Shown here: positions 41,099 through 55,799 of the stretch, piece after piece
Layout: the number at the start of each line of letters is the position of its first letter
Position numbering within the stretch: the first letter of the stretch is position 1
Assembly: GCA_035309945.1 (NCBI GenBank)
Contig: DATGEQ010000114.1
Span: 4,266 to 68,265 of the forward strand
DNA: 64,000 nt
Direction of reading: 5' to 3'
DNA from: Gemmatimonadales bacterium
GTDB taxonomy: Bacteria; Gemmatimonadota; Gemmatimonadetes; Gemmatimonadales; GWC2-71-9
Position numbers and translations under genes: made by a program
The notes under the pieces: model-generated
Databases searched by the model: none
What the model saw: only the letters and a program-made list of their open reading frames with translations
Told to the model about the DNA's origin: nothing

Positions 41099-41368
41099 AT
41101 GTTTGCGACGTTGGGCCTCATCCTGGCCGGCACCGCGCTGGTCGGGGGATACACCGTCACCAAGAACTTCGTCCGGCGCCGGCTGCGCTACGTCGATGCG
41201 GTTAAGAGACCCGCCGCGCCGCTCGTCGCGGGAGCCGTTGCCGCGGTGGCGCTGCTGCCGGCGACGTTATTGCCCGCGATTGGCGTGGGGACGATGTTGG
41301 CGTTGGGTGTCGGTGTAGCCGGTGGAGTGGCGAGCGGCCGGAACGCGCCTCCCCCCGAGAACGACTAG
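41099..41368 (+). CDS. small (89 aa) 3-TM membrane protein
   Basis: ATG 41099 is preceded by AGGAGA (41089-41094), one of the few clear Shine-Dalgarno sites in the window. Confidence 0.5.
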   Translation: MFATLGLILAGTALVGGYTVTKNFVRRRLRYVDAVKRPAAPLVAGAVAAVALLPATLLPAIGVGTMLALGVGVAGGVASGRNAPPPEND

Positions 41369-42249
41369 CCGGCGCGCAACGCCTCGGGGCGGCCGGCCAC
41401 CATTCTGAGTGCGCGCACCGCTTCGCGCGCAAAGGTGTGGCCCGCACCCTTCTCGATTTCCTCCAGCGCGCTCCAGCGCGTGAACGCGGGGCGCACCGGC
41501 GTCGCCATCTGCAGCGTCTCGAATGCGTCGGCGACGGCGAGCACCTTCACCGTCATCGGCATCGGCAGCGCTTCGATATCCCACTCATCGCCGACGATCT
41601 CGTAGTAATGCGAGTACTCCGCGATGATCTGCGCGGCGCCGCGGAGCGCGCGCGCGACCGCCAACGTTTCATCCGTCACGGAGCGCGTCAGCAGCTTCAG
41701 CAAACGCTGATCGGCCGTTCCCACTTCGTGCAGGAGCGCCGCGATCCGCAGGTTCTCGAGCTCGCCCGCCGGCAACTTGAGCTCTGCGCCCATGGCTGCC
41801 GCAAGCTCGGCCACGCGAGTCGAATGACCTTCTTGATTCGTCTCCGCTGACTCGATGTGAAAGGTCAACACCTCGAGCGTAGCGAGATACGCGTTCTTGA
41901 GATCGGTGAGACGCGACGCGCGCTGTTCGGCCAGACCGCCCACGACGTAGCCGGTGAGGATGAGAAAGCCGGCCCACGGGACCAGCGTCAACAGCGTGTC
42001 CTCGCTCAACCCCGGCGCGTCGCCGAGGCCCTGCGTTGCCTGGAAGAACAACACGAGCGCTACGACAAAAAATCCGGATCCGACGGCGAAGCGGCGGCCG
42101 CCATAAAAGCCCGCGAGAATGATCGGTAGATAGTAGAAGCTCAGAAACGCGAACTTTTGGTCGATCAGGGAATTGATGACGAGCATCGAAGCGACGAGCA
42201 GCACCACCAGAACGCGCTCGAAATGCTTCAAGAAGAACTGCTGAATCAC
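41365..42249 (-). CDS. membrane protein with degenerate HD-GYP-like domain
   Basis: ORF 41365..42339, GTG 42249 preferred. 5 TM helices, then ..GHSTRVAELAAAMG..LRIAALLHEVGT.. (HE replaces HD), ..EYSHYYEIVGDEWD.. (replaces HHE..GYP), ..VLAVADAFETL... Confidence 0.55.
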   Translation of the reverse strand: MIQQFFLKHFERVLVVLLVASMLVINSLIDQKFAFLSFYYLPIILAGFYGGRRFAVGSGFFVVALVLFFQATQGLGDAPGLSEDTLLTLVPWAGFLILTGYVVGGLAEQRASRLTDLKNAYLATLEVLTFHIESAETNQEGHSTRVAELAAAMGAELKLPAGELENLRIAALLHEVGTADQRLLKLLTRSVTDETLAVARALRGAAQIIAEYSHYYEIVGDEWDIEALPMPMTVKVLAVADAFETLQMATPVRPAFTRWSALEEIEKGAGHTFAREAVRALRMVAGRPEALRAG

Positions 42250-42414
42250 AAAACCCTTTCGACTAAGGAGATACAGCGCGGGCGAGCGTCCGAACCAAAG
42301 TGAGTGAGTGGTAGGCAATCTGCAAGTGAGAACGGTCACAATCGCGCACCATTGAGCACGCGGTAGCGCCCGGCACGGAATTCGCCTAGCCGATCACCCG
42401 GGGAGATGCGTGGA

Positions 42415-42705: not shown

Positions 42706-43542
42706 TTGGAGCCCGTGAGCTCGGCCCAGGTCGACGACTTCGGGCTGCCCCCCGGAGTCCGAGACGAGTACCTCCAAGGCGCGCGCGATCAGTTGGGCGC
42801 AATCGCAGAGCTGGCGGAGCGGCTGATCGCCGCCGGCGACGACACGGCCGCAATCGAAACGCTGCGCCGCGATGCCCATCGTCTGCGTGGCTCGGCCGGA
42901 TCGTTCGGATTTCCCCAAGCCTCGGTCGTCGCCGCCGAGCTCGAAGAAGCCGCCAAACGCTGGCTCGAGCATCCCGACAACGGCGTGGGGGACCGCGGCA
43001 AAATGACTCGTGCGTTCGTTCGCCGCCTCGCAGCGTCGCTTTTCACGAAACAGGCTACTGCTCCCGCCGCGGCACCGCCGTCTGACGTCGCCGCCCCTGC
43101 GCCGCCGCCTTTGATCGCCGCCCCTTTGCCGCCCCCCTCCACCGCAATGTCGGAGCCGGACGTTCCCGAAGTAATCGTCGTCGAGGATGATCCTGCCTTG
43201 GGAGAGCTGCTCACTTTTGGTCTCGAGGCGCGTGGATATCGGTTCCTGCACTTTCACAATGGCCGCGAGGCGCTGGACGTGCTCGAAACGATGGACACGC
43301 GCGGCACGAGGCAAGCGCCACTGCTGCTCCTGGACGTCGACCTTCCGGCGCTGGACGGGTACTCAATTTTCGAGGAGCTGCAGCAGAAATGCCCGGGGAA
43401 GTTCCGCGTGGTCTTCACGACCGTGCACGGCAGCGAGACCGAGCAGCTGCGTGGTCTTGAGGCGGGCGCGATCGACTACATGGTCAAGCCGATGAGCCTG
43501 CGCGTGGCGCTGGAGAAAATCCGGCGCTGGGTGGGCCGATGA
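42706..43542 (+). CDS. Hpt - linker - receiver (REC) phosphorelay protein
   Basis: Hpt His motif ..RRDAHRLRGSAGSFGF... Ala/Pro linker. REC with ..VIVVEDD.. ..LLLLDVDLPALDG.. ..DYMVKP... TTG 42706 (alternative GTG 42715). Confidence 0.8.
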   Translation: MEPVSSAQVDDFGLPPGVRDEYLQGARDQLGAIAELAERLIAAGDDTAAIETLRRDAHRLRGSAGSFGFPQASVVAAELEEAAKRWLEHPDNGVGDRGKMTRAFVRRLAASLFTKQATAPAAAPPSDVAAPAPPPLIAAPLPPPSTAMSEPDVPEVIVVEDDPALGELLTFGLEARGYRFLHFHNGREALDVLETMDTRGTRQAPLLLLDVDLPALDGYSIFEELQQKCPGKFRVVFTTVHGSETEQLRGLEAGAIDYMVKPMSLRVALEKIRRWVGR

Positions 43543-44600
43543 AGGCGCACACCTTTCTCATCGTGGTTGCCATTGTCCAGGGATTTCTGCTCGGCGCCCT
43601 CATGGCGCTGATCGTCCTGAACCGCTGGTTTCGGTTGCGCCGGAGCTCGCGCCTCAATCCTCGCCGCGAAGCGGTCGATGCCTCGATGCGCCGCTGGACC
43701 GCGGGGGCCGCCCCGCTCGCCGGCGTGCTCGTCGGGCTGTCGCGTCTGCCCGTCCCGCTTGCGATCGATGCGCTCGTCAAATGGTCGGCGCGCGTGCCTG
43801 GCGAGCGCTGGCGACAGCTGGCGGAAGCGCTCGAGCACACCTGGTGGGCCAGGCTGGTCCGCGCGAACAGCAGCTCGGCGCGCTGGTGGAAGCGGCTCGA
43901 AACTGCTCGATTCCTGAGCGTCGCGGCCACACCTCGCGACGTCGCGCGGCTCACGACCCTCATCGACGATCCGCATCCTGCCGTGCACGTGGCAGCGGTC
44001 GCGAGCCTCGAGCGCATGGAAAACACGCGGCTCACCTTGGCCGCGCTCGACCGGCTCCCGCAACTCGCACCGACCGTGCAGGCCTATTACGCCGCGATGC
44101 TGCTGCGCTCACGCCCGGTCGTAGTCGAACATCTGCAAAAGCGCCTGCGCCGTAGCGAAGACCCCGCCCTTCCCCGGCTGGCCGAATTCGCCGCCCGGCT
44201 GGGCGAGCCGGCGTTGCGCGAACGCCTGACCGCGCTCGCCGATCACCCCGATCCGGAAGTCCGCGTGCAGTCGGCGCGGGCGCTCGGCAGTTTTCCGCAT
44301 CGCGACTCGGTGACGGCGTTGAAACACCTCATCGTCGACGATGCCTGGGCCGTGCGCGCGCAGGCCGCGCGCTCGCTCGGCATGATCGCGGATGTGAGCG
44401 TGCTGCCGCTCGTGAAAGCCGCGCTGCGAGACGACGTCTGGTGGGTGCGGCTGCGCGCCGCGCTCGCGCTGATGCGCTTCGCCGCCCCAGGGCGCAATGC
44501 CCTGCTCGAGGCCGAAGTCGGCGCTGATCCGTCTGCGCGGACGATCGCACAGATGGTGCTGGGACTGCCCGCGCAAGCGCTGGCGGAGTTCGCCGCGTGA
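43539..44600 (+). CDS. N-terminally anchored HEAT-repeat protein
   Basis: One TM helix, then repeated ..D(P/D)xxxVRxxAAxALG.. units (HPAVHVAAVASL, DPEVRVQSARALG, DAWAVRAQAARSLG, DVWWVRLRAALAL). ATGA overlap upstream and GTGA overlap downstream. Confidence 0.7.
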   Translation: MKAHTFLIVVAIVQGFLLGALMALIVLNRWFRLRRSSRLNPRREAVDASMRRWTAGAAPLAGVLVGLSRLPVPLAIDALVKWSARVPGERWRQLAEALEHTWWARLVRANSSSARWWKRLETARFLSVAATPRDVARLTTLIDDPHPAVHVAAVASLERMENTRLTLAALDRLPQLAPTVQAYYAAMLLRSRPVVVEHLQKRLRRSEDPALPRLAEFAARLGEPALRERLTALADHPDPEVRVQSARALGSFPHRDSVTALKHLIVDDAWAVRAQAARSLGMIADVSVLPLVKAALRDDVWWVRLRAALALMRFAAPGRNALLEAEVGADPSARTIAQMVLGLPAQALAEFAA

Positions 44601-46732
44601 GCGTCTTGACGAACATCATCGCGGGGACGGACCTGACGATCCTCGTCTACTTCCTGGTCCTGAATTCGTTCTACGCCGTGCTGCTCATTCTCTCCATCCC
44701 CGAGATCTGGGAGCAAACGCGACTCGCCGAAGACGAAGACTTCCAGCGCCTGATGCAGAGCGACGCCTTGCCGCCGATCACGATCCTGGTGCCCGCGTAC
44801 AACGAGCGCGCGACGATCGAAGCGAGCGTAACGGCGATCCTGACGCTCGAGTATCGCAACTACGAAGTCGTGGTGGTGAACGACGGCTCGAAGGACGACA
44901 CCCTGGAGCGGCTGCGTCACGCCTTCGACCTCTATGAAGTTCCACGCATCTATCCTGAGACGATCGCGACGATGCCGCTGCGCGCGCTGTACCGCTCGCG
45001 GTCGCGCTCACGACTGCTCGTGCTCGACAAGGAGAACGGCGGCAAGGCGGATTCGCTCAACGCCGCGATCAATGCGTCGCGGTTTCCCCTGGTCATAGCC
45101 GTCGATGCCGATACCCTCATCGAGCCGGACGCCTTGCTGCGGCTCACACGCCCATTTTTACTCGGCCGCGAGATTGCGGCGGTGGGCGGCACCGTGCGCG
45201 TGGCCAACAACTGCACGGTGAAAGACGGGCGCGTCATCGATGCCCGCGTTTCCCGCAAGCTGCTGCCGGGCATCCAGGTGGTGGAGTATCTGCGCGCATT
45301 CCTGTTCGGCCGCCTCGGCTGGAACCGCCTGGGGGGCAACCTCATCATCTCCGGCGCGTTCGGCCTGTTTCGCAAGGAGTACCTGATGGCGGTCGGCGGC
45401 TACCGTACGACCAGCATCGTCGAAGATCTCGATTTGGTCGTGCGGCTGCACCGCTACCTGCGCGCGCAGAAGATCGATTACGTTATGCCGTTCATTCCGG
45501 ACCCGGTGGCGTGGACCGAGGTGCCCGAATCGATGAAGGTCCTGTCGCGCCAGCGCGAGCGGTGGCATCGGGGCCTGATCGCCGCCATGTGGCAGTACAA
45601 ATCGATGCTCTTCAACCCGCGCTACGGGCGAATCGGGTTGCTGGCGATGCCGTTCTATGCCTTCGGCGAAATGCTCGCGCCGGTCGTCGAGCTGGCTGGC
45701 TACCTGATCACGGCGGTCGGCCTTGTGTTCGGAATGGTCAACGTCTCATTTGCGCTCCTGTTCGTCCTGGTCGCGTGGGGGTACGGCATGCTGCTATCGA
45801 TCTGGGCGGTCGTGCTCGAAGAAGTCAGCTTCCGCCGCTATCGCCGGTTCGACGATCTCTTCCGGATGCTGCTGTTCGCTTCACTCGAGAACTTCGGCTA
45901 TCGCCAATGCACGGTCTGGTGGCGGCTCAAGGCGTTCGTGAGCGTGTTCAAGGGCGTCCACGTCTGGGGGGACATGGCGCGCAAAGGCTTCGGAAAACCG
46001 AGTGTCGCGGCACTGCTCGCGCTGTGCCTGGCCGCGCCGTGCCTCGGTCAAAACGCGCGGCTGTCGGCCTGGAGCTCGTACGAGTCCGTCTCCGGCAGTC
46101 AGGACTGGTCGACCCTCGGCGGTCAGTTTACTGTCACGTCAGCGCACGGGAACGGCGGCTGGATTGCCGCCGAGATGCTCGGCCGGTTCGGCAAGACGGA
46201 TGTGCACGAGCGGATCGGTGCGGTTCTCCATCCGACGCCACGGCTCTGGCTCACCGCCGAGGCAGGCACGTCCAAGCACCCGGTGTTCTCGCCGAAGAAC
46301 ACCTGGGAGTTGGACGCGAGCGCGCTCGTCGCACCGCGCGTTTCGGCGGGACTCGGGTACCGACGCTGGAATTACGTGGTCGGTCCGGTGGACGTCTGGA
46401 TGCCACACCTGGAGACCGAAACGGCCAAGATGTCCTGGGCGCTGCGTTTTTCTGTGTCCCGCAATCCAACCCACCGAACGGACCTGGCCGGATCCGTCAG
46501 AGCATCGCGCGCGATTTCGCATCGCACCACCATTTCGGTGCTCGGCGCCGGAGGCCGGGAGAGCTACTTCGTCGGCGGCTCGATACAGTCGCTGAAAACG
46601 CTTACCGGTGTGGCGGGTGTCCGCTACAATGCTGCGCGCGGCACGACGCTGCGGCTCGACGTTAGCGCGATTCACTCGAGTCCCGTTTTGTCCCGCGGCG
46701 GAGTCGCGATCGGTGTGGAACGGGGCCTCTGA
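44597..46732 (+). CDS. processive family-2 glycosyltransferase (PgaC/YaiP-like synthase) fused in frame to a YaiO-like outer-membrane beta-barrel domain
   Basis: Single 711-codon ORF. GT2 motifs VVVNDGSKDDT, AVDADT, QRERW, then 4-5 TM helices. From codon 460: a signal-peptide-like segment plus a roughly 225-aa beta-rich domain. Confidence 0.8.
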   Translation: MSVLTNIIAGTDLTILVYFLVLNSFYAVLLILSIPEIWEQTRLAEDEDFQRLMQSDALPPITILVPAYNERATIEASVTAILTLEYRNYEVVVVNDGSKDDTLERLRHAFDLYEVPRIYPETIATMPLRALYRSRSRSRLLVLDKENGGKADSLNAAINASRFPLVIAVDADTLIEPDALLRLTRPFLLGREIAAVGGTVRVANNCTVKDGRVIDARVSRKLLPGIQVVEYLRAFLFGRLGWNRLGGNLIISGAFGLFRKEYLMAVGGYRTTSIVEDLDLVVRLHRYLRAQKIDYVMPFIPDPVAWTEVPESMKVLSRQRERWHRGLIAAMWQYKSMLFNPRYGRIGLLAMPFYAFGEMLAPVVELAGYLITAVGLVFGMVNVSFALLFVLVAWGYGMLLSIWAVVLEEVSFRRYRRFDDLFRMLLFASLENFGYRQCTVWWRLKAFVSVFKGVHVWGDMARKGFGKPSVAALLALCLAAPCLGQNARLSAWSSYESVSGSQDWSTLGGQFTVTSAHGNGGWIAAEMLGRFGKTDVHERIGAVLHPTPRLWLTAEAGTSKHPVFSPKNTWELDASALVAPRVSAGLGYRRWNYVVGPVDVWMPHLETETAKMSWALRFSVSRNPTHRTDLAGSVRASRAISHRTTISVLGAGGRESYFVGGSIQSLKTLTGVAGVRYNAARGTTLRLDVSAIHSSPVLSRGGVAIGVERGL
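45974..46732 (+). CDS. possible independently initiated YaiO-like OM beta-barrel (nested, in frame with the GT2 ORF)
   Basis: ATG 45974 preceded by GGGGGG. MARKGFGKPSVAALLALCLAAPCLG|QN looks like a Sec signal. At 252 aa the length is about that of E. coli YaiO. Segments ..RLWLTAEAGTSKHPVFSPKN.. and ..GLGYRRWNY.. resemble my recollection of YaiO ..NWLTTRTGIAFADNTPVFARQD.. and ..TGYRYTKYY... Confidence 0.4.
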   Translation: MARKGFGKPSVAALLALCLAAPCLGQNARLSAWSSYESVSGSQDWSTLGGQFTVTSAHGNGGWIAAEMLGRFGKTDVHERIGAVLHPTPRLWLTAEAGTSKHPVFSPKNTWELDASALVAPRVSAGLGYRRWNYVVGPVDVWMPHLETETAKMSWALRFSVSRNPTHRTDLAGSVRASRAISHRTTISVLGAGGRESYFVGGSIQSLKTLTGVAGVRYNAARGTTLRLDVSAIHSSPVLSRGGVAIGVERGL

Positions 46733-46837: not shown

Positions 46838-47260
46838 ATGAAAAAGCGTACACTCGTCGCCGCGTTGCTCGCGCTGGCCCTTGGCGTACCCGCCGTGGTG
46901 CATGCGCAGCAGCCCGGCGATTCCAACCGAGACAAGCGCGAAGTGCGCAGCGACCGACGCGACTTGCGTCGTGATCGTCGTGACGCGCGCAGCGATCGGC
47001 GCGACATTAAGCACGACAATCACGATATCCGGCAGGACCAGCGCGAGCGCCGGCAGGACATGAAGCAGGGTGATACCACGGCGGCGCGTCGGGAATCGCG
47101 TGACATCCGGCAGGACCGGCGTGATGTTCGCGGTGACCGCCGCGACCTGCGGAGCGACCGGCGTGATCGCCGCTCCGACCGGCGTGACGTGCGGCAGGAT
47201 CGGCGTGATGTCAACCGCGACCGTCACGACAGCAGCGCAACTCCCCCAAAAAATCCGTAA
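46838..47260 (+). CDS. secreted highly charged heptad-repeat protein (DRRDxRx)n
   Basis: ATG 46838 with signal peptide MKKRTLVAALLALALGVPAVVHA|QQ. Residues 31-131 consist of about 13 imperfect 7-aa (21-nt) repeats. Confidence 0.6.
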   Translation: MKKRTLVAALLALALGVPAVVHAQQPGDSNRDKREVRSDRRDLRRDRRDARSDRRDIKHDNHDIRQDQRERRQDMKQGDTTAARRESRDIRQDRRDVRGDRRDLRSDRRDRRSDRRDVRQDRRDVNRDRHDSSATPPKNP

Positions 47261-47283
47261 TTGCCAGCGGAGATGATTGCCAG

Positions 47284-47311
47284 GTAGGGGCGCAGCATGC
47301 TGCGCCCCTAC
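47284..47311. repeat. 28-bp perfect palindrome GTAGGGGCGCAGCATGCTGCGCCCCTAC (REP-like / bidirectional terminator), copy 1
   Basis: Self-complementary 28-mer followed by TGTTTTTGTT. Identical copy at 58570-58597. Contains the TAG stop (47308-47310) of the converging dipeptidase gene. Confidence 0.8.
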
Positions 47312-48519
47312 TGTTTTTGTTGCCTGCTGGTTCTCGCGACCTGCTCCGCCGCGCGCATAATGCGCAGGATATTCAATCCGGCAACTTTCCTCACGTCCGC
47401 CGTCGACCAGCCCCGGCGCAGCAGCTCGGCGATCAGATCGGGAAACTTCGACACGTCCTCCAAACCCACCGGTACGTCGGTGATGCCGTCGAAGTCGGAG
47501 CCGATGCCGACGCAATCGACGCCCGCGACTTTGCGGATGTATTCGATATGATCGGCGACCTGTTGCAGTGTGGCATGAGGTCCACGGGCGTTCCAGACGT
47601 TCACCGAATCGGCGCGGGTGGCTGAATCGGCTCCCTCCGCGCGTAGCTGCTCCAACCGCGCATCGACGCTGTCGCCGTAGACCCGCACCGCCTCGGAAAC
47701 AAAGCCGGGATTGAAGTTCACCATGACGATGCCCCGGTTGGTCGCGACGAGCTTCAGGATCGAGTCCGGCACGTCTCGCGGATGATTGGTGAGCGCCCGT
47801 GCCGAGGAGTGCGAGAAGATGACGGGCGCGCGCGAGGTGTGAAGCGCGTCCGACATGGTCTGATCGTTGACGTGCGACAGGTCGACCAGCATGCCCAGCC
47901 GGTTCATCTCGAGCACGACCTGCTTGCCGAACGCCGACAGGCCGCGATGGGACGTATCGGTCGACGCGACGGCCCAGTCCAGGCTCCGCCAGTGCGTCAG
48001 CGTCATGTACCGCGCGCCCAGATCGTAGAACATTCGCAGCGCGCCGAGCGAGTTTTCGATCGCGTGGCCGCCCTCGATGCCGATCAGGCAGGAGAACTTG
48101 CGGGCAGCGAAGTTGTGCTCGACGTCGGCGGCGGTGTATGCCATCGCCATGCTGCGGGACGTGCTGCACAGCCGGTGCACGAGATCGATCTGCTCCAGCG
48201 CATACACCGCCGGATGCTGGCCGGAATCCATCGTCGTGGTGGGGACATAGGCGGCCCAGAACTGGCCGGCGACGTGGCCCGCGCGCAGCCGCGGGAGATC
48301 AGTCATGAGCTTCGGCTGACTTACCGCGAAGTCGACCGAATCGAGTCCCCCGCGCTCGCGAATCGCATCCGGAATGTCGTTGTGCCCGTCGATGAGAGGA
48401 ACGGTCATGAGGATGGCGATCGCCCGCGTGCGCAACGAGTCCGGCACGGTCTGGGCGGGGCAGCGGTGTGGCCGAGCGAGCGACAGAAGGATGGCGAGGC
48501 CGGCGAGCTGTTTGATCAT
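47308..48519 (-). CDS. M19-family membrane dipeptidase
   Basis: Signal peptide. ..IDGHNDIP.. ..LTHWRS.. ..VDLSHV.. ..IFSHSSA.. ..GIGSDFDG.. motifs. Confidence 0.9.
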   Translation of the reverse strand: MIKQLAGLAILLSLARPHRCPAQTVPDSLRTRAIAILMTVPLIDGHNDIPDAIRERGGLDSVDFAVSQPKLMTDLPRLRAGHVAGQFWAAYVPTTTMDSGQHPAVYALEQIDLVHRLCSTSRSMAMAYTAADVEHNFAARKFSCLIGIEGGHAIENSLGALRMFYDLGARYMTLTHWRSLDWAVASTDTSHRGLSAFGKQVVLEMNRLGMLVDLSHVNDQTMSDALHTSRAPVIFSHSSARALTNHPRDVPDSILKLVATNRGIVMVNFNPGFVSEAVRVYGDSVDARLEQLRAEGADSATRADSVNVWNARGPHATLQQVADHIEYIRKVAGVDCVGIGSDFDGITDVPVGLEDVSKFPDLIAELLRRGWSTADVRKVAGLNILRIMRAAEQVARTSRQQKQ

Positions 48520-48563: not shown

Positions 48564-49046
48564 ATGGTGTCGATCACACTCGAGCTGAATGGTGAGCACA
48601 AGGAGATTGCCTTTGCGCCACACAAGACGCTGCTCGAGGTCCTGCGTGAGGATCTGAGTCTCACCGGCACGAAGCATGGCTGCGAATTGGGTGAATGCGG
48701 CACGTGCACGGTGCTGCTCGATGGAACGCCGGTCCTGTCGTGTCTGGTCCTCGGCGCGGCGTGCGACGGACGTGCGGTCCGCACGGTCGAAGGCATGGCG
48801 GAAAATGGGCGGCTGCATCCGCTCCAGGAGACCTTCGCGGATCTCGGCGCCGCCCAGTGCGGCTACTGCACACCCGCGTTCCTCCTGACAGCGGAAGCGC
48901 TTCTCGCGAAGAATCCCAAGCCGACGCGCGAACAAATCAAGCACGCGCTCGCCGGCAATCTCTGCCGCTGCACAGGCTACATCAAGATTTATGAAGCCGT
49001 GGAGTCAGCAGCGGCGCGCATGCGCGGTGAGATTCATGGCCGGTAA
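48564..49046 (+). CDS. (2Fe-2S)-binding small subunit of an XDH-family molybdoenzyme (HcrC/CoxS-like)
   Basis: Motifs CELGECGTCTV, ..CGYCTPAFLL.. and ..NLCRCTGYIKI... Confidence 0.9.
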   Translation: MVSITLELNGEHKEIAFAPHKTLLEVLREDLSLTGTKHGCELGECGTCTVLLDGTPVLSCLVLGAACDGRAVRTVEGMAENGRLHPLQETFADLGAAQCGYCTPAFLLTAEALLAKNPKPTREQIKHALAGNLCRCTGYIKIYEAVESAAARMRGEIHGR

Positions 49047-51456
49047 GCCCTCGGCCTATCGCATCATCGGCAAGGCACTCCGTAAGGTCGATGCCGTCGC
49101 CAAGGTCACCGGGACGACCAAATTCGCGGACGACCTCGCGCTTCCGCGCATGTTGTACTGCAAGCTGCTGCGCAGCACGCAGCCGCACGCGCGGATCGTA
49201 TCGATCGACACGAGCGCGGCCGAGCGGCATGAAGGCGTGCAGGCCGTCCTCACCGGCAGGAGTTTGCCGATTCCATTCGGGATTCTCCCCGTGTCGCAGG
49301 ACGAGCACGCGCTCTGCATCGACAAGGTTCGCTTTGTCGGCGATCCCGTCGCGGCCGTCGCGGCGACGAGCGAAGAGGCGGCGACCGCCGCGCTCGACCT
49401 CATCAAGGTTGTGTACGAGCCGCTCACCGCGTTCGACTCCGCCGCCGCGGCAGTCGCGCATCCCGAGCCGCAGATCCACGACTACGGCGATAGCGGCAAC
49501 ATCCATAAGCTGATCAATCTCGAATTCGGCGACGTCGAAACGGGATTTACCGAAGCGGATCTCGTCCGCGAGGATCTCTTCTTTTTCGAAGGCAACACGC
49601 ATTTGCCGATGGAGCAGCATGCGGCGGTCGCGACGTGGTCGCCGGACGGCAAGCTGACGCTGTGGACGTCGACGCAGACGCCGCACTACGTGCATCGCGC
49701 GCTCGCCAAGGTGCTCGAGCTCGCGCCGGCGCGGATCCGCGTCATTGCCACACCCAACGGCGGCGGCTTCGGCGGCAAAAGCGATCCATTCAATCACGAA
49801 ATCGCCGTCGCCAAACTCGCGATGCTGACCGGCCGGCCCGTGAAGATCACGTTGACGCGCGAAGAGGTGTTCTACTGCCACCGCGGACGCCATCCGACAC
49901 TCATGTGGGTGCGCACGGGCGTGAAGCAGGACGGATCGATCACCGGCATGCATTTCCGTTCGCTGCTGGATGGCGGCGCGTACGGCTCGTACGGCGTGGC
50001 GAGCACCTACTACACGGGCGCGCTGCAGACCGTCACGTACAACGTGCCCCGCTACCACTTCCAGGGCGCCCGCGCGTTCACGAACAAGGCACCGTGCGGG
50101 CCCAAACGCGGTCACGGCACACCGCAGCCGCGCTTCGCGCTCGAAGTCCATCTCGATAAGATCGCGGAAGAATTGAAGATCGATCCCGCGGAGCTGCGCC
50201 TCAAAACGCTCGTCCCCGCCAATTCTTTGACGGCGAATTACCTGCGCGTCGGCTCGATGGGTCTCGGTACCTGCATCGAGAAGGTCGTCGCTGGCTCGGG
50301 CTGGAAACGCAAATTCCGCAAGCTCCCGCAGGGCCGCGGGGTCGGCCTCGCGTGCTCCAGCTATATCTCCGGCGCCGGCCTGCCGATTTACTGGAACAAC
50401 CTGCCGCATTCCGGCGTGCAGCTGAAATGCGACCGCGGCGGCGGCGTCACCGTCTTCTGCGGCTCGACCGAAATCGGGCAAGGCTCCGACTCGATCCTCG
50501 CCTATATCGTCGCGGAAGTGCTCGGCATCGATCCGTTCGACATCGCCGTCGTCACCGCTGACACCGATCTCACGCCGGTCGACCTCGGCAGCTATTCCAG
50601 CCGCGTCACACTGATGAGCGGCAATGCGGCGTTGCAAGCCGCGGAGCGCGCGCGCCAAATCCTTGCCGTCCATGCCGCAAAGAAGCTGGAGGTGCCGGCC
50701 GAGCGCGTGACGTTCGCGGATGGCCGCGTGTTCGACAGCAAAGATCCGAAACGCGGTACGTCGTTCGCCGAGGCGGTGCAGTTGGCGGAGGCGGCCGAGG
50801 GCACGATCGGTACGGTTGGGTCATACACGCCGCCACAGAGCGCCGGAAAGTATCGCGGCGCCGGCGTCGGCCCGTCGCCGGCGTACTCGTACAGCGCGTG
50901 CGTCGCGGAAGTCGAAGTCGATCCCGAAACCGGAATCGTGCGCGTGCCGACGATCTGGATCGCGCACGACGTCGGCCGCGCGATCAACAGCGCAGCGGTC
51001 ATCGGGCAGGTCGAAGGCTCGATCTACATGGGCCTGGGCGAAGCATTGATGGAGGAGATGGCTTACCGGGGCAACCGCAACGTGATGCACAAGATCCCGT
51101 CGCTGCTCGAATACAAGAGCCCGACGACGCTCGAAATGTGCGATGTGGTCACCTATCTCGTCGAAGATCCCGACCCCAATGGTCCATTCGGCGCGAAGGA
51201 AGTCGGCCAGGGCCCGCTGCTGCCGGTGATGCCTGCCGTGGCGAACGCGGTCTACGACGCGGTGGGTGTGCGGGTCGACGAAGTGCCGATCACGCCGGAG
51301 AAGGTGTTGAAAGCGCTGCGCGCGAAGGCCAAGGGTGAGCCCGGTCGCGTCGGCCCGAGCGAATTCCCGGCGATTCCCTGGCCCGAGCCCACGCGCGTAC
51401 CGACGCCGTGGGAGGGCGGCGACGGCAAAGCGGTCGCGATGGAACGAGCTCACTAA
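49036..51456 (+). CDS. molybdopterin-binding large subunit of an XDH-family enzyme (HcrA/CoxL-like)
   Basis: ATG 49036 (MAGKPSAYRIIGKALRKVDAVAKVTGTTKFADDL). ..GGGFGGK.. and ..AKEVGQGPL.. conserved blocks. Confidence 0.9.
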   Translation: MAGKPSAYRIIGKALRKVDAVAKVTGTTKFADDLALPRMLYCKLLRSTQPHARIVSIDTSAAERHEGVQAVLTGRSLPIPFGILPVSQDEHALCIDKVRFVGDPVAAVAATSEEAATAALDLIKVVYEPLTAFDSAAAAVAHPEPQIHDYGDSGNIHKLINLEFGDVETGFTEADLVREDLFFFEGNTHLPMEQHAAVATWSPDGKLTLWTSTQTPHYVHRALAKVLELAPARIRVIATPNGGGFGGKSDPFNHEIAVAKLAMLTGRPVKITLTREEVFYCHRGRHPTLMWVRTGVKQDGSITGMHFRSLLDGGAYGSYGVASTYYTGALQTVTYNVPRYHFQGARAFTNKAPCGPKRGHGTPQPRFALEVHLDKIAEELKIDPAELRLKTLVPANSLTANYLRVGSMGLGTCIEKVVAGSGWKRKFRKLPQGRGVGLACSSYISGAGLPIYWNNLPHSGVQLKCDRGGGVTVFCGSTEIGQGSDSILAYIVAEVLGIDPFDIAVVTADTDLTPVDLGSYSSRVTLMSGNAALQAAERARQILAVHAAKKLEVPAERVTFADGRVFDSKDPKRGTSFAEAVQLAEAAEGTIGTVGSYTPPQSAGKYRGAGVGPSPAYSYSACVAEVEVDPETGIVRVPTIWIAHDVGRAINSAAVIGQVEGSIYMGLGEALMEEMAYRGNRNVMHKIPSLLEYKSPTTLEMCDVVTYLVEDPDPNGPFGAKEVGQGPLLPVMPAVANAVYDAVGVRVDEVPITPEKVLKALRAKAKGEPGRVGPSEFPAIPWPEPTRVPTPWEGGDGKAVAMERAH

Positions 51457-52421
51457 TGCTGCGATTACCCGCGTTTCGATATCTGCAACCCACCGCTCTC
51501 GCCGAAGCCCTTCGGATGAAGGCCGGTGCGGGACCGGACGGCATGTTTGTCGCCGGCGGCACTGATTTGTATCCAAACATGAAACGCCGTCATCAGGAGC
51601 CGAAGATTGTCATCTCATTGATGGCGATCCCGGAACTGCGCGAGCGGTCGGACAATCGGATTGGCGCGTGCGTCACGCTCAGCGACTTGACAGCCGATCC
51701 ACCATTCGGCCCATCGGCCCTGCGGACCGCCGCAGCCCTGGTCTCCACACCGCTGCTTCGCAACATGGGCACCATCGGCGGCAACCTGTGTCTCGATACG
51801 CGCTGCAACTATTACAACCAAAGCTATGAGTGGCGGAAGTCGATCGACTTTTGCATGAAAAAAGACGGTGCGATTTGCTGGGTGGCGCCGTCGTCGCCAC
51901 GCTGTTGGGCCGTCAGCTCATCCGATGTGGCACCGGTCATGGTCGCGATCGGCGCCGAGTATCGACTGATGGGAACGCAAGGCGAGCGCATCGTTCCCGC
52001 GGGCCGATTCTACAACAACGATGGGATCAACTATCTCACCAAACAGCCGGACGAAATCCTCGTCGATGTGCGCCTGCCCGTGCCCAATGGGTGGGACGCG
52101 GTCTACCACAAGCTGCGGCGGCGCGGCTCCTTTGATTTCCCCGTGTTGGGCGTCGCCGCTTGGATCCGGTGGAATGGCAGGACTGTTGGGGATGCGCGAG
52201 TCGTCCTGGGTGGCGTCGCTAGTTACCCACAGGAGATTCCCGCAGCGGGCGCAACATTGAAAGGCTCATCGCTCTCAGACGAGGCGATCGCCGCCGCGGC
52301 AGATGCAGCCTATCAACCTTCGAAACCGATGGACAACACCGATTTCGATTTGTCGTGGCGCAAGCAGATGACACGGGTCTACGTGAAACGAGCCCTCGAG
52401 GAGCTGAGGGCCCGCCACTAG
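51456..52421 (+). CDS. FAD-binding medium subunit (HcrB/CoxM-like) carrying a Cys-rich [4Fe-4S]-type insertion
   Basis: ATG 51456 (TAATG overlap). FAD motif ..VAGGTDLYP.. ..TIGGNLC... Insertion CLDTRCNYYNQSYEWRKSIDFCMKKDGAICWVAPSSPRCWA. Confidence 0.85.
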   Translation: MLRLPAFRYLQPTALAEALRMKAGAGPDGMFVAGGTDLYPNMKRRHQEPKIVISLMAIPELRERSDNRIGACVTLSDLTADPPFGPSALRTAAALVSTPLLRNMGTIGGNLCLDTRCNYYNQSYEWRKSIDFCMKKDGAICWVAPSSPRCWAVSSSDVAPVMVAIGAEYRLMGTQGERIVPAGRFYNNDGINYLTKQPDEILVDVRLPVPNGWDAVYHKLRRRGSFDFPVLGVAAWIRWNGRTVGDARVVLGGVASYPQEIPAAGATLKGSSLSDEAIAAAADAAYQPSKPMDNTDFDLSWRKQMTRVYVKRALEELRARH

Positions 52422-53187: not shown

Positions 53188-53865
53188 ATGGCCGTGGAGA
53201 TCACCCCGCACCCTACGTGGGTGTCGGAATTGGACGCGACACTAGAGCCGAGCCGTCAGGCGATCCTCGACACGCCTGTCATCGTGGACGCGTCCGAGAA
53301 TCAGCTCGTCGACGGCCAGATCCAGAACTTTCTCGTCGCCTTCTACCCGATCATTCGGGACTTCCCGCAATGGCTGCAGATGCTGCTCGATCGCTCGCCA
53401 GCGATGGGCCGGGAATTCTTCAAGGACAACATCCGTGTCGAGCGCCGGCACGACGCGATGTGGCGCGCCATGGGCGACGGCTTCAACGTCCCCAAGAAGC
53501 GCTTTCAGGAGCCGGAGGCGATGCTTCCCGAAACGAAGAAATTCCACGCATACCTCACCGAGATGTGCCGCAACGCGGACTTCGGCCAGGCGGTCTCGGC
53601 GACGAACTACGCAGTTGAAGGAGTCGCCCAGAAGATTTCCGAGAAGGCACTGCGTGGTCTCGCGAAGAACGAAAAGATCGGCCCGCGCGGCCGCTGGTGG
53701 CTCGAGGAGCACGCCAAGTACGACGACGAGCATCCGATCCATGCGCTCGAGATCATCAAGGACTGCGTGAAGAACGGCGGCGACGATCCGCGAACGATCA
53801 CCGAAGCCGCGCTCGAGAGTCTGCGGTTGATGCGTTTGTCGATGGAGGCTTCCTATCACGCGTGA
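53188..53865 (+). CDS. heme-oxygenase-fold / TenA-PqqC-like 'iron-containing redox enzyme' family protein
   Basis: All-helical 225 aa. ..FYPIIRDFPQWL.. ..ERRHDAMW.. ..ATNYAVEGVAQ.. ..EEHAKYDDEHP.. pattern (E/H-rich helices). Family call from memory. Confidence 0.55.
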   Translation: MAVEITPHPTWVSELDATLEPSRQAILDTPVIVDASENQLVDGQIQNFLVAFYPIIRDFPQWLQMLLDRSPAMGREFFKDNIRVERRHDAMWRAMGDGFNVPKKRFQEPEAMLPETKKFHAYLTEMCRNADFGQAVSATNYAVEGVAQKISEKALRGLAKNEKIGPRGRWWLEEHAKYDDEHPIHALEIIKDCVKNGGDDPRTITEAALESLRLMRLSMEASYHA

Positions 53866-55799
53866 GTAAGGCTCGCCGCATCTCGCCGGCACGCGGGACC
53901 GGGACCGGACCCGCGGCCGGTAAGCGCCCGCTCTCTCCTGAGCGACTGGACCTGCTCCAGGCAGCGGCCGACGTTGTGGCCGCGCTGCCCGATGCAGTCG
54001 TCGTGACGGGTACGGATCGCCGTGTCTTGGCGGCCAACCAGGCCGGCGCCCAGCTGCTCGGCTGGGAACCGGACAACGTCGTCGGCCAGGCGATCTCCGA
54101 TCACGTCACGGCCGCCGAGCGCGCCCACGTGGCTTCGCGGGAAGACAAAGTGCTCGCCGGCGAGACGCAGCGGTACGAGACGCGCGTCGTCAATCACGCA
54201 ACCAACGAAGAACGCGACGTCGCTGTCTCGAGCGGTCCCTTCCGCGTCAACGGTGAAATCATCGGCACGGTCGCGACGCTCCGGGACATCACCGAACCCA
54301 AGCGCGCGCAGGAAACACTCGCCCGCTCGGAAGCGCGCTACCGCCACCTGGTCGAATCGGCCTCGGATGCCATCGTCACACTGGACGCGAACGGCCGCTT
54401 CACCACGGTCAATCATGCGGCGGAAAACATCTCCGGCTACAAGCGCGAGGAGCTCGTCGGCCAGTGGTTCGCCCCGATGCTCCCCGACGACGACCTCCCG
54501 AAGGCGCTGGGCCACTTCCAGCAGGCTCTCGCCGGCGAGACCGGTCTGTTCGAGACGCAGTTCTACCGCAAGGATGGCGAGGTCCGGATCATCTCCGTGA
54601 CGTACTCGACGCCGCAAAAGGACGAAGAAGTCCTCTGCTTGATCCGCGACGTCACCGATCAAAAGATGCTGCAGGAGCAGCTGATTCAATCGGAAAAGAT
54701 GTCGGCGATCGGGCAGCTGGTCTCCGGCGTAGCGCACGAGCTCAACAACCCGCTGGCCGGCATCTCCGCATTCGCGCAGCTGTTGCTCGCCGAAAAGCGC
54801 TTCCCGCCCGATCAGCGGACCGCGGCGGAAACAATCTACAGCGAAGCTCGACGCGCCAGCCGCATCGTCCAGAACCTCCTCACCTTCGCGCGCCAGCACA
54901 AAGCCGAAAAGATTCTCACGGCCATCAATCAGGTGCTCGACGACACGCTCGAGCTGCGCGGCTATGAGCTACGCGTGCGCGGCATCGACGTCCGGCGCGA
55001 GTACGACGAAACCCTGCCCGATACGATGGCCGACGCGCATCAGCTGCAGCAGGTCTTCCTCAATTTGATCACGAACGCCGAGCAGGCGATGGAGCAGCGG
55101 GACGGCCATCATCACCATCTGACCGTGCGGACTCGGCGCAACGGCGACGCGATCCGGATCGAGGTCGAGGACACCGGTGGCGGCATTCCGCCGAACTTGA
55201 TCGAGCGGATCTTCAACCCCTTCTTCACCACGAAGCCGACGGGCTCTGGGACCGGGCTTGGCCTCTCGATCTCGCTGGGCATCGTCCGCGAGCACGAAGG
55301 GAAAATCTGGGCCGAAAACGTCCCGCCGCCGCAGGCCGGCGCGCGGTTCGTCGTGGAGATCCCGATCACGGAGCCGCGCACGTCGGGCGAGCACGCCGCA
55401 GTGACGCAGGCGCACCCCCTCGGCAACGACAGCCTGCGCGTGCTCGTCGTGGACGATGAAGCGTCGGTTCGCGTCTCGCTGCAGCGCTATCTCGCCGGCA
55501 AAGGTCATCAGGTGGAAACCACGGCCAGCGGCGAGGATGCACTGGTACGGTTGAAGGGCACGAAGTACGACGCGGTAATTCTGGACATGCGCATGCCCGA
55601 TCTATCGGGCGAGCAGATCTACGAACGCCTTCGCAGCAACGATCCCTCCCACGCCGAGCGCGTGATCTTCACGACTGGCGACCTGGTGAACGAGCAGATG
55701 CGCCGGTTCCTCGACGGCACGGGGCGACCTTGCGTCCCCAAGCCATTCGAGTTCGCTTCTTTCGACCAGGCGTTGCCCGCGGCACGACGCCGCGCGTAA
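53862..55799 (+). CDS. hybrid sensor histidine kinase (PAS-PAS-HisKA-HATPase-REC)
   Basis: GTG 53862 (GTGA overlap upstream). H-box ..VSGVAHELNNPL... N, G1 (DTGGGI) and G2 (GSGTGLGLS) boxes. C-terminal receiver ..VLVVDDE.. ..VILDMRMPDLSG... Confidence 0.9.
   Translation: MSKARRISPARGTGTGPAAGKRPLSPERLDLLQAAADVVAALPDAVVVTGTDRRVLAANQAGAQLLGWEPDNVVGQAISDHVTAAERAHVASREDKVLAGETQRYETRVVNHATNEERDVAVSSGPFRVNGEIIGTVATLRDITEPKRAQETLARSEARYRHLVESASDAIVTLDANGRFTTVNHAAENISGYKREELVGQWFAPMLPDDDLPKALGHFQQALAGETGLFETQFYRKDGEVRIISVTYSTPQKDEEVLCLIRDVTDQKMLQEQLIQSEKMSAIGQLVSGVAHELNNPLAGISAFAQLLLAEKRFPPDQRTAAETIYSEARRASRIVQNLLTFARQHKAEKILTAINQVLDDTLELRGYELRVRGIDVRREYDETLPDTMADAHQLQQVFLNLITNAEQAMEQRDGHHHHLTVRTRRNGDAIRIEVEDTGGGIPPNLIERIFNPFFTTKPTGSGTGLGLSISLGIVREHEGKIWAENVPPPQAGARFVVEIPITEPRTSGEHAAVTQAHPLGNDSLRVLVVDDEASVRVSLQRYLAGKGHQVETTASGEDALVRLKGTKYDAVILDMRMPDLSGEQIYERLRSNDPSHAERVIFTTGDLVNEQMRRFLDGTGRPCVPKPFEFASFDQALPAARRRA

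What the first reader, a model, noticed from the sequence alone, without database searches (positions are those of the whole stretch)
42706..46732. Compact phosphorelay / HEAT / synthase-barrel operon: a minimal synthase-dependent exopolysaccharide system
Three ORFs are chained by ATGA (43539) and GTGA (44597) overlaps:
- an Hpt-linker-REC protein, which is an unusual single-polypeptide order;
- an N-terminally anchored HEAT-repeat protein;
- a processive GT2 synthase (D, DxD, QRERW, multi-TM) carrying a YaiO-like beta-barrel.

Synthase-dependent EPS systems (Pga, Bcs, Alg, Pel, Nfr) normally need a synthase, a co-polymerase or receptor, and a separate OM porin, and are usually gated by c-di-GMP. 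This module has no PilZ, GGDEF or MshEN domain that I can see. Control appears to come from a His-Asp relay, with the HEAT protein as the only candidate co-factor. I do not recall this three-gene architecture being characterised.
Basis: partly seen in the sequence, partly recalled or inferred. Interest (0 to 1): 0.65.

Follow-up and report, generated by a model that had tools for sequence, protein, structure and literature searches.

The report
REC–HEAT–synthase–porin polysaccharide export operon
This soil bacterium carries a compact operon for making and exporting a sugar polymer; the gene set recurs in more than a dozen phyla, appears never to have been studied, and here the outer-membrane pore is fused to the inner-membrane synthase through an internal signal peptide.

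Summary
Three co-directional ORFs joined by ATGA and GTGA overlaps encode an Hpt–REC protein, a membrane-anchored HEAT-repeat protein, and a 711-aa processive GT2 synthase with a C-terminal beta-barrel.

In 163 loci from at least 12 phyla:
- A homologous HEAT gene sits directly upstream of the GT2 in 134 of 135 testable loci.
- A gene ending in a REC domain precedes it in 91 of 101.

Natural HEAT–GT2 fusions exist, and their topology matches that of the two separate proteins.

The barrel belongs to a YaiO-type family that recurs in this system as a separate gene (62 loci) or fused to the synthase (5). Monoderm phyla lack it.

It has a small residue at -1 in 110 of 110 homologues and an invariant Gln at +1. 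No linker follows it, so the pore is probably cut free by signal peptidase.

The Hpt–REC order is a trimmed form of longer Hpt–REC–REC–GGDEF–REC regulators. c-di-GMP independence is therefore plausible but unproven.

No paper or curated family describes the system. I rate it a new variant of synthase-dependent secretion. Function is inferred, not shown.

The parts
42706..43542 (+). Hpt–linker–REC phosphorelay protein (278 aa). Hpt domain at about nt 42760-42960 with His58; Pro/Ala-rich linker at aa ~110-150; receiver at about nt 43171-43521 with Asp210.
   Evidence: Pfam gives Hpt E 4e-11 and Response_reg E 5e-18. His is conserved in 32 aligned Hpt domains. The DD, D and K residues of the terminal REC are conserved across the 65 regulators.
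43539..44600 (+). Membrane-anchored cytoplasmic HEAT-repeat protein (353 aa); putative partner subunit of the synthase. Its start overlaps the ORF1 stop (ATGA).
   Evidence: HEAT_2 E 7e-19. TM at aa 8-26 followed by RLRRSSRLNPRRE. Homologous across phyla, with a conserved SRxWWRR motif. HEAT_2 is found in 21 of 21 orthologues. Adjacent to the GT2 in 74/75 and 60/60 loci. Fused to the GT2 in 14 of 149 family representatives.
44597..45994 (+). Processive GT2 synthase-translocase core (aa 1-466). It has an N-terminal TM, a GT-A domain with D96, D170xD172, E276D277 and Q319RERW, two C-terminal TM helices plus amphipathic helices, and a conserved cytoplasmic end WGxMxRxGF. Its GTG start overlaps the ORF2 stop (GTGA).
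   Evidence: Pfam and NCBIfam. 29% identity to E. coli PgaC. Profile hits to hyaluronan synthase and BcsA. AF2 core pLDDT 84-98. Foldseek top hits 7sp7 (TMt 0.65), BcsA, Chs1.
45974..46048 (+). Internal signal-peptide-like joint (aa 460-484): n-region MARKGFGK, h-region PSVAALLALCLAA, then P-C-L-G. The predicted signal peptidase I site lies between Gly484 and Gln485.
   Evidence: Position statistics over 110 homologues: -1 is G/S/A/C in 110/110, -3 is C/G/L/V/S, -4 is P in 107/110, +1 is Q in 110/110. Barrel-less sister proteins stop 10-30 aa after the GF motif. Other barrel fusions have equivalent segments.
46049..46732 (+). YaiO-type outer-membrane beta-barrel domain (aa 485-711, 14 predicted strands) plus the stop codon.
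   Evidence: AF2 pLDDT 81-93 with 14 strands. Foldseek top hits OmpG, Omp33 and other porins. An HMM built only from Pfam-verified YaiO domains of other lineages hits it at E 1.7e-12. TIGR04390 is sub-threshold.
46838..47260 (+). Possible fourth gene: a 140-aa secreted Arg/Asp-repeat protein with its own signal peptide. Lineage-specific; a role in the system is unproven.
   Evidence: ORF and translation. 21/42-nt tandem repeats. A homologue was found only in L004/L005.
47283..47312 (+). Hairpin terminator (13-bp stem with 9 G-C pairs, then a T-run). It probably ends the transcription unit and is shared with the convergent dipeptidase gene.
41365..42339 (-). Divergent neighbour: a membrane protein with a degenerate HD-GYP-type domain (HD changed to HE, no GYP motif). 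It is conserved next to the operon only in close relatives and is not part of the pan-phylum core.
   Evidence: HD_5 E 3e-9 and HD E 9e-6. Sequence. Found in only 11 loci, all close Gemmatimonadales.
53697..55799 (+). Hybrid histidine kinase (PAS-PAS-HisKA-HATPase-REC) that lacks an Hpt domain. It is a candidate phosphodonor for the Hpt–REC protein; this is speculative.
   Evidence: Also present in the syntenic locus L002.

Best explanation
The operon encodes a self-contained synthase-dependent polysaccharide secretion module.

**Shown by sequence, structure model and comparative genomics**
- ORF3's first ~466 residues form a membrane-embedded processive GT2 of the PgaC, hyaluronan, cellulose and chitin synthase type. 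Enzymes of this type polymerise a UDP-sugar and thread the chain across the inner membrane.
- ORF2 is a cytoplasmic HEAT-repeat scaffold tethered by one TM helix. It is an obligate genomic partner of this GT2 subfamily.
- The C-terminal 227 residues of ORF3 form a YaiO-type 14-stranded outer-membrane barrel. The same barrel family appears as a separate operon gene in other diderm lineages.

**Inferred**
- The HEAT protein binds the cytoplasmic face of the synthase as a co-subunit.
- The hydrophobic joint after the synthase's cytoplasmic tail (RKGFGK-SVAALLALCLAAPCLG|Q) acts as an internal signal sequence that carries the barrel into the periplasm.
- Signal peptidase I cuts at Gly484|Gln485. 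The released barrel is inserted into the outer membrane and serves as the export pore.
- A hybrid kinase phosphorylates His58 of the Hpt domain, and the phosphoryl group passes to Asp210 of the C-terminal receiver.
- The receiver has no output domain, so in its phosphorylated form it switches the HEAT–synthase complex on or off by direct binding.
- The product is most likely a beta-linked hexosamine-type homopolymer, judged only from the nearest families (PgaC, NodC, chitin and hyaluronan synthases).
For: **GT2**
- Motifs and Pfam hits; PgaC_IcaA is the best NCBIfam match.
- 29% identity to PgaC, E 4e-27.
- The profile matches hyaluronan synthase across residues 14-401.
- AF2 core pLDDT is 84-98, with Foldseek top hits 7sp7, BcsA, Chs1 and CesA.

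**HEAT partner**
- Adjacent and co-directional in 74/75 genome loci and 60/60 metagenome loci, often with 4-nt overlaps.
- 13 N-terminal HEAT–GT2 fusions carry one extra TM helix. One C-terminal GT2–HEAT fusion has none. This fits a cytoplasmic HEAT domain and a cytoplasmic GT2 C-terminus.

**Barrel**
- Confident 14-strand model resembling OmpG.
- The seeds-only YaiO HMM scores E 1.7e-12.
- Separate TPR–YaiO or YaiO genes lie inside the operon and were verified with Pfam.
- Across 163 loci: 42 upstream-adjacent, 20 downstream-adjacent, 5 fused, 8 nearby.
- Absent from all 8 Actinomycetota loci and the 1 Chloroflexota locus.
- Independent GT2–(TPR)–YaiO and GT2–TPR–BcsC_C fusions exist.

**Joint**
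- Sister proteins end just after WGxMxRxGF.
- The -3/-1 pattern is conserved in 110 homologues.
- All other barrel fusions have signal-peptide-like segments.
- The first strand starts two residues after the predicted site.

**Regulator**
- A gene ending in REC lies directly upstream of [barrel–]HEAT–GT2 in 91 of 101 loci.
- The terminal REC keeps its phospho-acceptor residues, and the Hpt His is conserved.
- No riboswitch lies upstream.
Against: - No experiment supports the model, and no transcript data exist; only DNA metagenome runs hold the sequence.
- There is no direct evidence that REC contacts the HEAT protein or the GT2. No REC–HEAT or REC–GT2 fusion was seen among 149 representatives.
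- Most Gemmatimonadota relatives lack any barrel at the locus: 43 of 48, some with 80-83% identical cores. The barrel is therefore not essential for the core module, or it is encoded elsewhere.
- The barrel's C-terminus ends in ...ERGL, not the usual aromatic residue of Proteobacterial barrel signals.
- The curated YaiO threshold is not reached, and profile comparison with E. coli YaiO is weak.
- The operon contains no periplasmic TPR scaffold and no polymer-modifying enzyme.
- The regulators of many relatives contain a GGDEF domain, so c-di-GMP may matter in the family.
- The cleavage site was judged by eye and by position statistics, not with a trained predictor.
Confidence: 0.62

Rival explanations
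1. c-di-GMP is the real gate. The synthase–HEAT complex binds c-di-GMP made elsewhere, as PgaC–PgaD does. The Hpt–REC protein is then only a remnant or a secondary input left after the REC–GGDEF middle of the ancestral regulator was lost.
For: - 21 of 65 regulators in related loci carry a GGDEF domain between receivers.
- Four have intact GG(D/E)EF and RxxD motifs.
- The Gemmatimonas-type regulators keep a ~170-aa GGDEF-sized remnant.
- This locus has a divergent HD-GYP-type neighbour.
Against: - 17 of the 21 GGDEF domains lack the catalytic motif.
- 36 of 65 regulators have no GGDEF at all (REC, REC-REC, Hpt-REC), yet the terminal REC is universal and keeps its phospho-acceptor.
- No PilZ, MshEN or I-site-bearing domain is present in the three proteins.
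- The HD-GYP neighbour is degenerate (HE, no GYP) and lineage-specific.
Confidence: 0.18
2. The barrel is made as its own protein by internal translation initiation at ATG 45974 (Met460), giving a normal precursor MARKGFGK...CLG|Q. It would not then come from cleavage of the full-length fusion. The full-length form would be a by-product.
For: - Met460 lies exactly where a signal-peptide n-region would begin.
- A G-rich stretch (GGGGGGAC) precedes the ATG.
- The mature product would be identical.
Against: - Met460 and the RKGF residues belong to the conserved WGxMxRxGF end of the GT2 core, also in barrel-less relatives across phyla. Their conservation needs no internal start.
- The G-run ends only 2 nt (AC) before the ATG, which is poor spacing.
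- No stop codon separates the parts in more than 100 homologues, so ribosomes translating the synthase must read into the barrel.
Confidence: 0.12
3. The polymer is not a secreted exopolysaccharide but a periplasmic or cell-wall-associated glycan. The barrel would then serve another purpose, such as uptake or an anchoring role, and the REC protein would control localisation or timing rather than catalysis.
For: - Relatives fuse the same GT2 core to SPOR domains, which bind peptidoglycan, or to LtaS/sulfatase-type domains.
- Most Gemmatimonadota relatives have no barrel at the locus.
Against: - The barrel family tracks the system in diderm phyla and is absent from monoderm phyla.
- TPR–barrel fusions and separate TPR–barrel genes copy the PgaA/BcsC layout of known exporters.
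Confidence: 0.08

Closest known systems
PgaABCD poly-beta-1,6-GlcNAc system (E. coli)
   Same: - The inner-membrane processive GT2 (PgaC) is the best-scoring curated family: TIGR03937 E 1e-39, and 29% identity over the GT domain.
- A small accessory inner-membrane protein partners the synthase.
- An outer-membrane beta-barrel exports the polymer.
   Different: - The score of 136 bits is far below the family cut-off of 422, so the protein is not a PgaC orthologue.
- The partner is a 350-aa HEAT protein, not PgaD.
- There is no PgaB-like deacetylase.
- The porin is a 14-strand YaiO-type barrel without TPR, rather than the TPR plus 16-strand barrel of PgaA (PgaA structure from memory).
- The regulator is a phosphorelay receiver rather than c-di-GMP.
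Bacterial cellulose synthase BcsA-BcsB-BcsC and Chlorella virus / vertebrate hyaluronan synthases
   Same: - Same fold and motifs of the synthase-translocase core.
- The BcsC-style TPR plus barrel arrangement is seen in relatives of this system.
   Different: - No PilZ domain and no BcsB.
- The core is closer in size and topology to hyaluronan synthase (TMt 0.65).
- The porin is fused to the synthase here.
E. coli K-12 yaiS-yaiP-yaiX-yaiO locus (uncharacterised)
   Same: - A GT2 gene is clustered with a YaiO barrel gene.
- It shows the same pairing of this barrel family with a glycosyltransferase.
   Different: - YaiP is only 29% identical over 221 aa of the GT-A fold, with no aligned QxxRW region.
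- There is no HEAT or REC gene.
- A deacetylase and an acyltransferase are present instead.
- YaiO itself is very distant from this barrel.
NfrA/NfrB (E. coli; c-di-GMP-activated GT2 with outer-membrane NfrA; from memory)
   Same: A compact synthase plus outer-membrane protein system with few accessory parts.
   Different: - NfrB is gated by a C-terminal MshEN c-di-GMP domain; none is detected here.
- The partner and the regulator are different.
Bradyrhizobium FbcH cytochrome b–c1 polyprotein (from memory, not checked here)
   Same: It is a precedent for one membrane polypeptide split at an internal signal-peptide-like sequence into two mature proteins.
   Different: - It is an unrelated function.
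- Both of its products stay at the inner membrane.
- Here the released part would go to the outer membrane.

Membership tests
Synthase-dependent exopolysaccharide secretion systems (Pga/Bcs/Alg/Pel kind) | Inner-membrane processive GT2 with D, DxD, ED, QxxRW motifs and a transmembrane channel | tested here: met
Synthase-dependent exopolysaccharide secretion systems (Pga/Bcs/Alg/Pel kind) | Dedicated outer-membrane beta-barrel porin | tested here: met
   14-strand barrel model. The barrel family is linked to the operon in 75 of 163 loci and is absent from monoderm phyla. The export role itself is inferred.
Synthase-dependent exopolysaccharide secretion systems (Pga/Bcs/Alg/Pel kind) | Periplasmic TPR scaffold attached to or partnering the porin | tested here: not met
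   There is no TPR in ORF3 or elsewhere in the operon. TPR is present in the barrel genes of other lineages.
Synthase-dependent exopolysaccharide secretion systems (Pga/Bcs/Alg/Pel kind) | c-di-GMP receptor domain (PilZ, degenerate GGDEF I-site, MshEN, PgaCD interface) | tested here: not met
   No such Pfam or NCBIfam hit in the three proteins. A cryptic interface site cannot be excluded.
Synthase-dependent exopolysaccharide secretion systems (Pga/Bcs/Alg/Pel kind) | Secreted polymer actually produced | not testable with these tools
   Needs genetics and chemistry.
PgaC/IcaA (TIGR03937) | Score above the curated equivalog cut-off (422 bits) | tested here: not met
   136.5 bits
YaiO outer-membrane barrel family (PF19413 / TIGR04390) | Profile match above the curated threshold | tested here: inconclusive
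   - TIGR04390 scores 20.8 bits against a cut-off of 32, and there is no Pfam hit at E<0.1.
- hhalign against a small YaiO alignment gives E 5e-4 and probability 31%.
- An HMM built from Pfam-verified YaiO domains of the same system gives E 1.7e-12.
- Four close homologues carry a precomputed PF19413 hit.
Hpt phosphotransfer domain (PF01627) | Profile match and conserved phospho-His in the HxxKG-like motif | tested here: met
   43.4 bits against a cut-off of 24.6. His58 lies in AHRLRGSAGSFG.
Response regulator receiver (PF00072) | Profile match plus the acidic pair, phospho-Asp, Thr and Lys | tested here: met
   65.8 bits. D161/D162, D210, T238, K261.
HD-GYP c-di-GMP phosphodiesterase (neighbour gene 41365-42339) | HD and GYP catalytic motifs | tested here: not met
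   The HD_5 profile matches, but the sequence reads LLHEVGT and no GYP motif is visible.

The most novel reading that the evidence does not exclude
This would be a previously unrecognised, pan-phylum class of synthase-dependent polysaccharide secretion. A phosphorylated stand-alone receiver domain, rather than c-di-GMP, would switch a HEAT-scaffolded hyaluronan/PgaC-like synthase directly. YaiO-family barrels, so far without any known role, would be the dedicated export pores. In this Gemmatimonadales lineage the pore would be delivered as the tail of the synthase polypeptide and cut off at an internal signal peptide.
Probability: 0.35. Interest if true: 0.8.

Novelty: new variant of a known kind. 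Interest (0 to 1): 0.7.

Why it matters
- **A missing class of export system.** Synthase-dependent systems (cellulose, PNAG, alginate, Pel) are central to biofilm biology, and all the well-studied ones are gated by c-di-GMP. A widely distributed relative built around a HEAT partner and a phosphorelay receiver would show a second way to switch such synthases after translation.
- **A role for YaiO.** It would give the first functional context for the YaiO outer-membrane protein family. In the papers searched, E. coli YaiO appears mainly as a PCR marker for detecting the species.
- **A clean test case for protein sorting.** The synthase–pore fusion tests how a cell sorts one polypeptide to two membranes.
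- **Ecological reach.** The system is common in soil Gemmatimonadota and in many poorly cultured phyla. Its polymer may matter for soil aggregation or desiccation survival; that last point is speculation.

Tried and rejected
- **Narrow barrel HMM.** An HMM built only from the window's close homologues found no barrels in distant relatives. It was replaced by an HMM built from Pfam-verified YaiO domains.
- **Direct comparison with E. coli YaiO and YaiP.** Both comparisons were weak. The yai locus is an analogue, not a homologous system.
- **Exact-sequence contig look-up.** It found nothing for the window protein. Relatives P0114 and P0021 showed only whole-region synteny, which is uninformative.
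- **First AF2 run.** The shallow alignment modelled the GT2 core poorly. A second run with a diverse alignment fixed the core but lost the barrel. The two models are used for different halves.
- **Transcript evidence.** Only DNA metagenome runs hold the sequence.
- **Riboswitch or other known RNA upstream.** None was found.
- **Sigma-70 promoter scan.** There were no hits. The tool may not suit this phylum.
- **Lipoprotein reading of the joint.** Rejected, because no residue pattern fits a lipobox before either conserved Cys.
- **Assembly or frameshift artefact for the fusion.** Rejected, because the length is conserved in more than 100 clusters.
- **Literature searches.** Searches for HEAT plus GT2 plus regulator, and for YaiO in polysaccharide export, found nothing relevant. 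Subscription journals were not searched.

Full report
**1. The observation**

The window has about 65% G+C. Its proteins match Gemmatimonadales metagenome-assembled genomes from soil.

Three co-directional ORFs lie at 42706-43542, 43539-44600 and 44597-46732. They overlap by four bases at ATGA and GTGA.

- **ORF1** has an Hpt domain and a receiver (REC) domain. His58 and Asp210 are in place.
- **ORF2** has one N-terminal hydrophobic helix followed by a run of Arg residues, so the rest of the protein is cytoplasmic. It then has HEAT repeats of the PBS-lyase/alphaRep type.
- **ORF3** is a family-2 glycosyltransferase with D96, D170xD172, E276D277 and Q319RERW. Its C-terminal part gives a sub-threshold YaiO hit.

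The 711-aa length of ORF3 is kept in more than 100 clusters at 77-100% identity. The fusion is therefore real.

**2. The synthase**

- The best curated family is PgaC/IcaA, but the score is far below its cut-off (136 against 422 bits).
- Identity to E. coli PgaC is 29% over the GT domain.
- A profile of 44 diverse relatives matches Chlorella virus hyaluronan synthase over residues 14-401, and also BcsA and chitin synthases.
- With that alignment, AlphaFold2 models residues 1-465 at pLDDT 84-98.
- Foldseek ranks hyaluronan synthase first (TM 0.65 on the target), followed by BcsA, yeast Chs1 and plant CesA.

This is a processive synthase-translocase.

An exhaustive search finds 1,477 cluster representatives at E<1e-30. 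Most are 460-490 aa and end just after a conserved WGxMxRxGF motif.

**3. The gene neighbourhood**

I collected 80 loci from species-representative genomes and 80 from metagenomes. I scanned six-frame ORFs with HMMs grown from the window's proteins and checked samples with Pfam.

- **HEAT gene.** A homologous HEAT gene lies directly upstream of the GT2, on the same strand, in 74 of 75 genome loci and 60 of 60 metagenome loci that have enough upstream DNA. The usual junction is a 4-nt overlap.
- **REC gene.** A gene whose last domain is a receiver lies directly upstream of HEAT, or of a barrel gene that precedes HEAT, in 91 of 101 loci.
- **Taxonomic spread.** The genome loci come from Gemmatimonadota, Acidobacteriota, Nitrospirota, Bacteroidota, Ignavibacteria, Rhodothermales/Balneolaceae/Salinibacter, Actinomycetota, Chloroflexota, Myxococcota, Cloacimonadota, Marinimicrobia, Sericytochromatia and a Firmicutes MAG.

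Whole-region synteny explains the match only among the nearest relatives. It cannot explain conservation at this depth. The first refutation condition, that the genes are not conserved together, is also not met.

**4. HEAT as a subunit**

Among 149 family representatives, 13 are single polypeptides with the order HEAT–GT2, and one has the order GT2–HEAT.

- The N-terminal fusions carry exactly one extra hydrophobic segment between the HEAT domain and the GT2's own first TM helix.
- The C-terminal fusion has none.

This is the pattern expected if the HEAT domain and the GT2 C-terminus are both cytoplasmic and the GT2 N-terminus is outside.

Gene fusion together with invariant adjacency is strong evidence for a physical complex. 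The contact itself remains inferred.

**5. The barrel**

- With the close-homologue alignment, AlphaFold2 models residues 486-710 as 14 antiparallel strands at pLDDT 81-93.
- Foldseek's best hits are OmpG, Omp33 and other outer-membrane porins.
- Curated YaiO models do not reach threshold on this sequence. Comparison with E. coli YaiO is weak.

In other lineages, however, the operon contains a separate gene that Pfam calls YaiO with confidence (E 3e-27 to 9e-11). This gene often has N-terminal TPR repeats and sits between the REC and HEAT genes.

An HMM built only from such verified domains hits the window's barrel at E 1.7e-12.

| Barrel position | Loci (of 163) |
|---|---|
| Upstream-adjacent to HEAT | 42 |
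| Downstream-adjacent to the GT2 | 20 |
| Fused to the GT2 | 5 |
| Elsewhere in the fetched locus | 8 |
| Not found in the fetched locus | 88 |

The barrel is absent from all eight Actinomycetota loci and the one Chloroflexota locus. That is what an outer-membrane exporter predicts.

Other fusions exist among the family representatives: GT2–YaiO, GT2–TPR–YaiO and GT2–TPR–BcsC_C.

One caveat stands. 43 of 48 Gemmatimonadota loci have no barrel nearby, including sisters whose cores are 80-83% identical to the window's. The fusion is therefore a recent addition in this clade.

**6.

Barrel-less sisters stop 10-30 residues after ...WGEMTRKGF. In the window's clade the sequence continues GKPSVAALLALCLAAPCLG|QNARLSAW.

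The segment has three parts: a basic n-region borrowed from the synthase tail, a 12-residue hydrophobic core, and a Pro at -4.

Over the 110 alignable homologues of the 120 listed:

| Position | Residues |
|---|---|
| -4 | P in 107 of 110 |
| -3 | C, G, L, V or S |
| -1 | G 64, S 27, A 18, C 1 |
| +1 | Gln in all 110 |

This is the classical signal peptidase I pattern. No lipobox fits.

Every other barrel fusion I examined has an equivalent signal-peptide-like segment. Fusions to SPOR or sulfatase domains have longer, anchor-like helices instead.

The synthase tail is cytoplasmic (section 4), so the segment is oriented like a signal peptide. The first beta-strand begins two residues after the predicted site. 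An uncleaved protein could not span the periplasm.

I therefore infer cleavage and release of the pore. Internal initiation at Met460 would give the same mature protein and is kept as a minor rival. The conservation of Met460 is already explained by the core motif.

**7. The regulator**

The gene upstream of HEAT is modular:

| Architecture | Loci (of 65) |
|---|---|
| REC | 15 |
| Hpt-REC | 13 |
| REC-REC | 8 |
| Hpt-REC-REC, with a 170-aa GGDEF-sized gap | 8 |
| Forms with GGDEF between receivers | 21 |

- Pfam confirms Hpt, REC and GGDEF in samples.
- Only 4 of the 21 GGDEF domains keep GG(D/E)EF and RxxD.
- The terminal receiver is the one constant. It keeps the acidic pair, the phospho-Asp and the Lys. 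The Hpt His is conserved.

The window's Hpt–linker–REC is thus the long form with its middle replaced by a Pro/Ala-rich linker.

The receiver has no output domain and always abuts the HEAT gene. The simplest model is that the phosphorylated receiver acts on the HEAT–synthase complex by binding. This step is inference.

A hybrid kinase without Hpt lies 7 kb downstream and could be the donor.

No c-di-GMP receptor domain or upstream riboswitch was found. The GGDEF-bearing relatives and a degenerate HD-GYP-type neighbour keep a c-di-GMP role open.

**8. Operon end**

A lineage-specific 140-aa secreted Arg/Asp-repeat ORF (46838-47260) follows ORF3. A strong hairpin terminator at 47283-47312 comes next.

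**9. Comparison and novelty**

The system works like the Pga, Bcs and Nfr machines: a synthase-translocase, an accessory inner-membrane partner and an outer-membrane barrel.

It fails the membership tests for PgaC, and it lacks the TPR scaffold, the modifying enzyme and the c-di-GMP receptor of those systems.

The E. coli yaiS-yaiP-yaiX-yaiO cluster shows the same barrel-plus-GT2 pairing but is only distantly related.

I found no paper on this gene set. In the papers searched, YaiO appears mainly as an E. coli PCR marker. NCBIfam has no specific model for any of the three proteins. The search does not cover subscription journals.

I class it as a new variant of a known kind. It is widespread, uncharacterised and has two unusual features: the receiver-plus-HEAT control layer and the synthase–pore fusion through an internal signal peptide.

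Noticed in passing
window 46838-47260 (+), terminator 47283-47312: A 140-aa secreted protein made almost entirely of Arg/Asp repeats (RRDxRxD), encoded by 21/42-nt tandem repeats. It lies just after the synthase gene and before a strong terminator. A homologue was found only in one related locus (L004/L005).
   Followed up: partly
window 41365-42339 (-): Divergently transcribed membrane protein with an HD-GYP-type (HD_5) domain in which HD reads HE and no GYP motif is visible. It may be a degenerate c-di-GMP sensor. It sits next to the operon only in close Gemmatimonadales.
   Followed up: partly
window 53697-55799 (+): Hybrid histidine kinase (PAS-PAS-HisKA-HATPase-REC) without an Hpt domain, 7 kb downstream. 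It would need an external Hpt such as ORF1.
   Followed up: no
proteins P0127, P0203, P0198, P0226 (relatives of ORF3): The same GT2 core is fused, after an extra TM helix, to SPOR (peptidoglycan-binding) or sulfatase/LtaS-type domains in other lineages. This hints at wall attachment or phospho-substituent modification of the polymer.
   Followed up: no
L083:4534-5889: A MAG labelled Eubacteriales (normally monoderm) carries a TPR–YaiO outer-membrane barrel gene right after the GT2. Either the organism is a diderm Firmicute or the bin is misassigned.
   Followed up: no
L001 (E. coli K-12 380069-384616): yaiS (deacetylase), yaiP (GT2), yaiX (acyltransferase, split by IS2) and yaiO (barrel) form what looks like a cryptic polysaccharide export cluster, disrupted in K-12.
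   Followed up: partly
L016, L018, L021, L027 regulators (Gemmatimonas group): A ~170-aa segment between the two receivers starts like a GGDEF domain (HPGTGL..) but is no longer detected by Pfam. The domain appears to be decaying.
   Followed up: partly
window 48564-52421 (+): Three-gene xanthine-dehydrogenase/aldehyde-oxidase-type molybdoenzyme operon (2Fe-2S subunit, molybdopterin subunit, FAD subunit). It appears unrelated to the finding.
   Followed up: no
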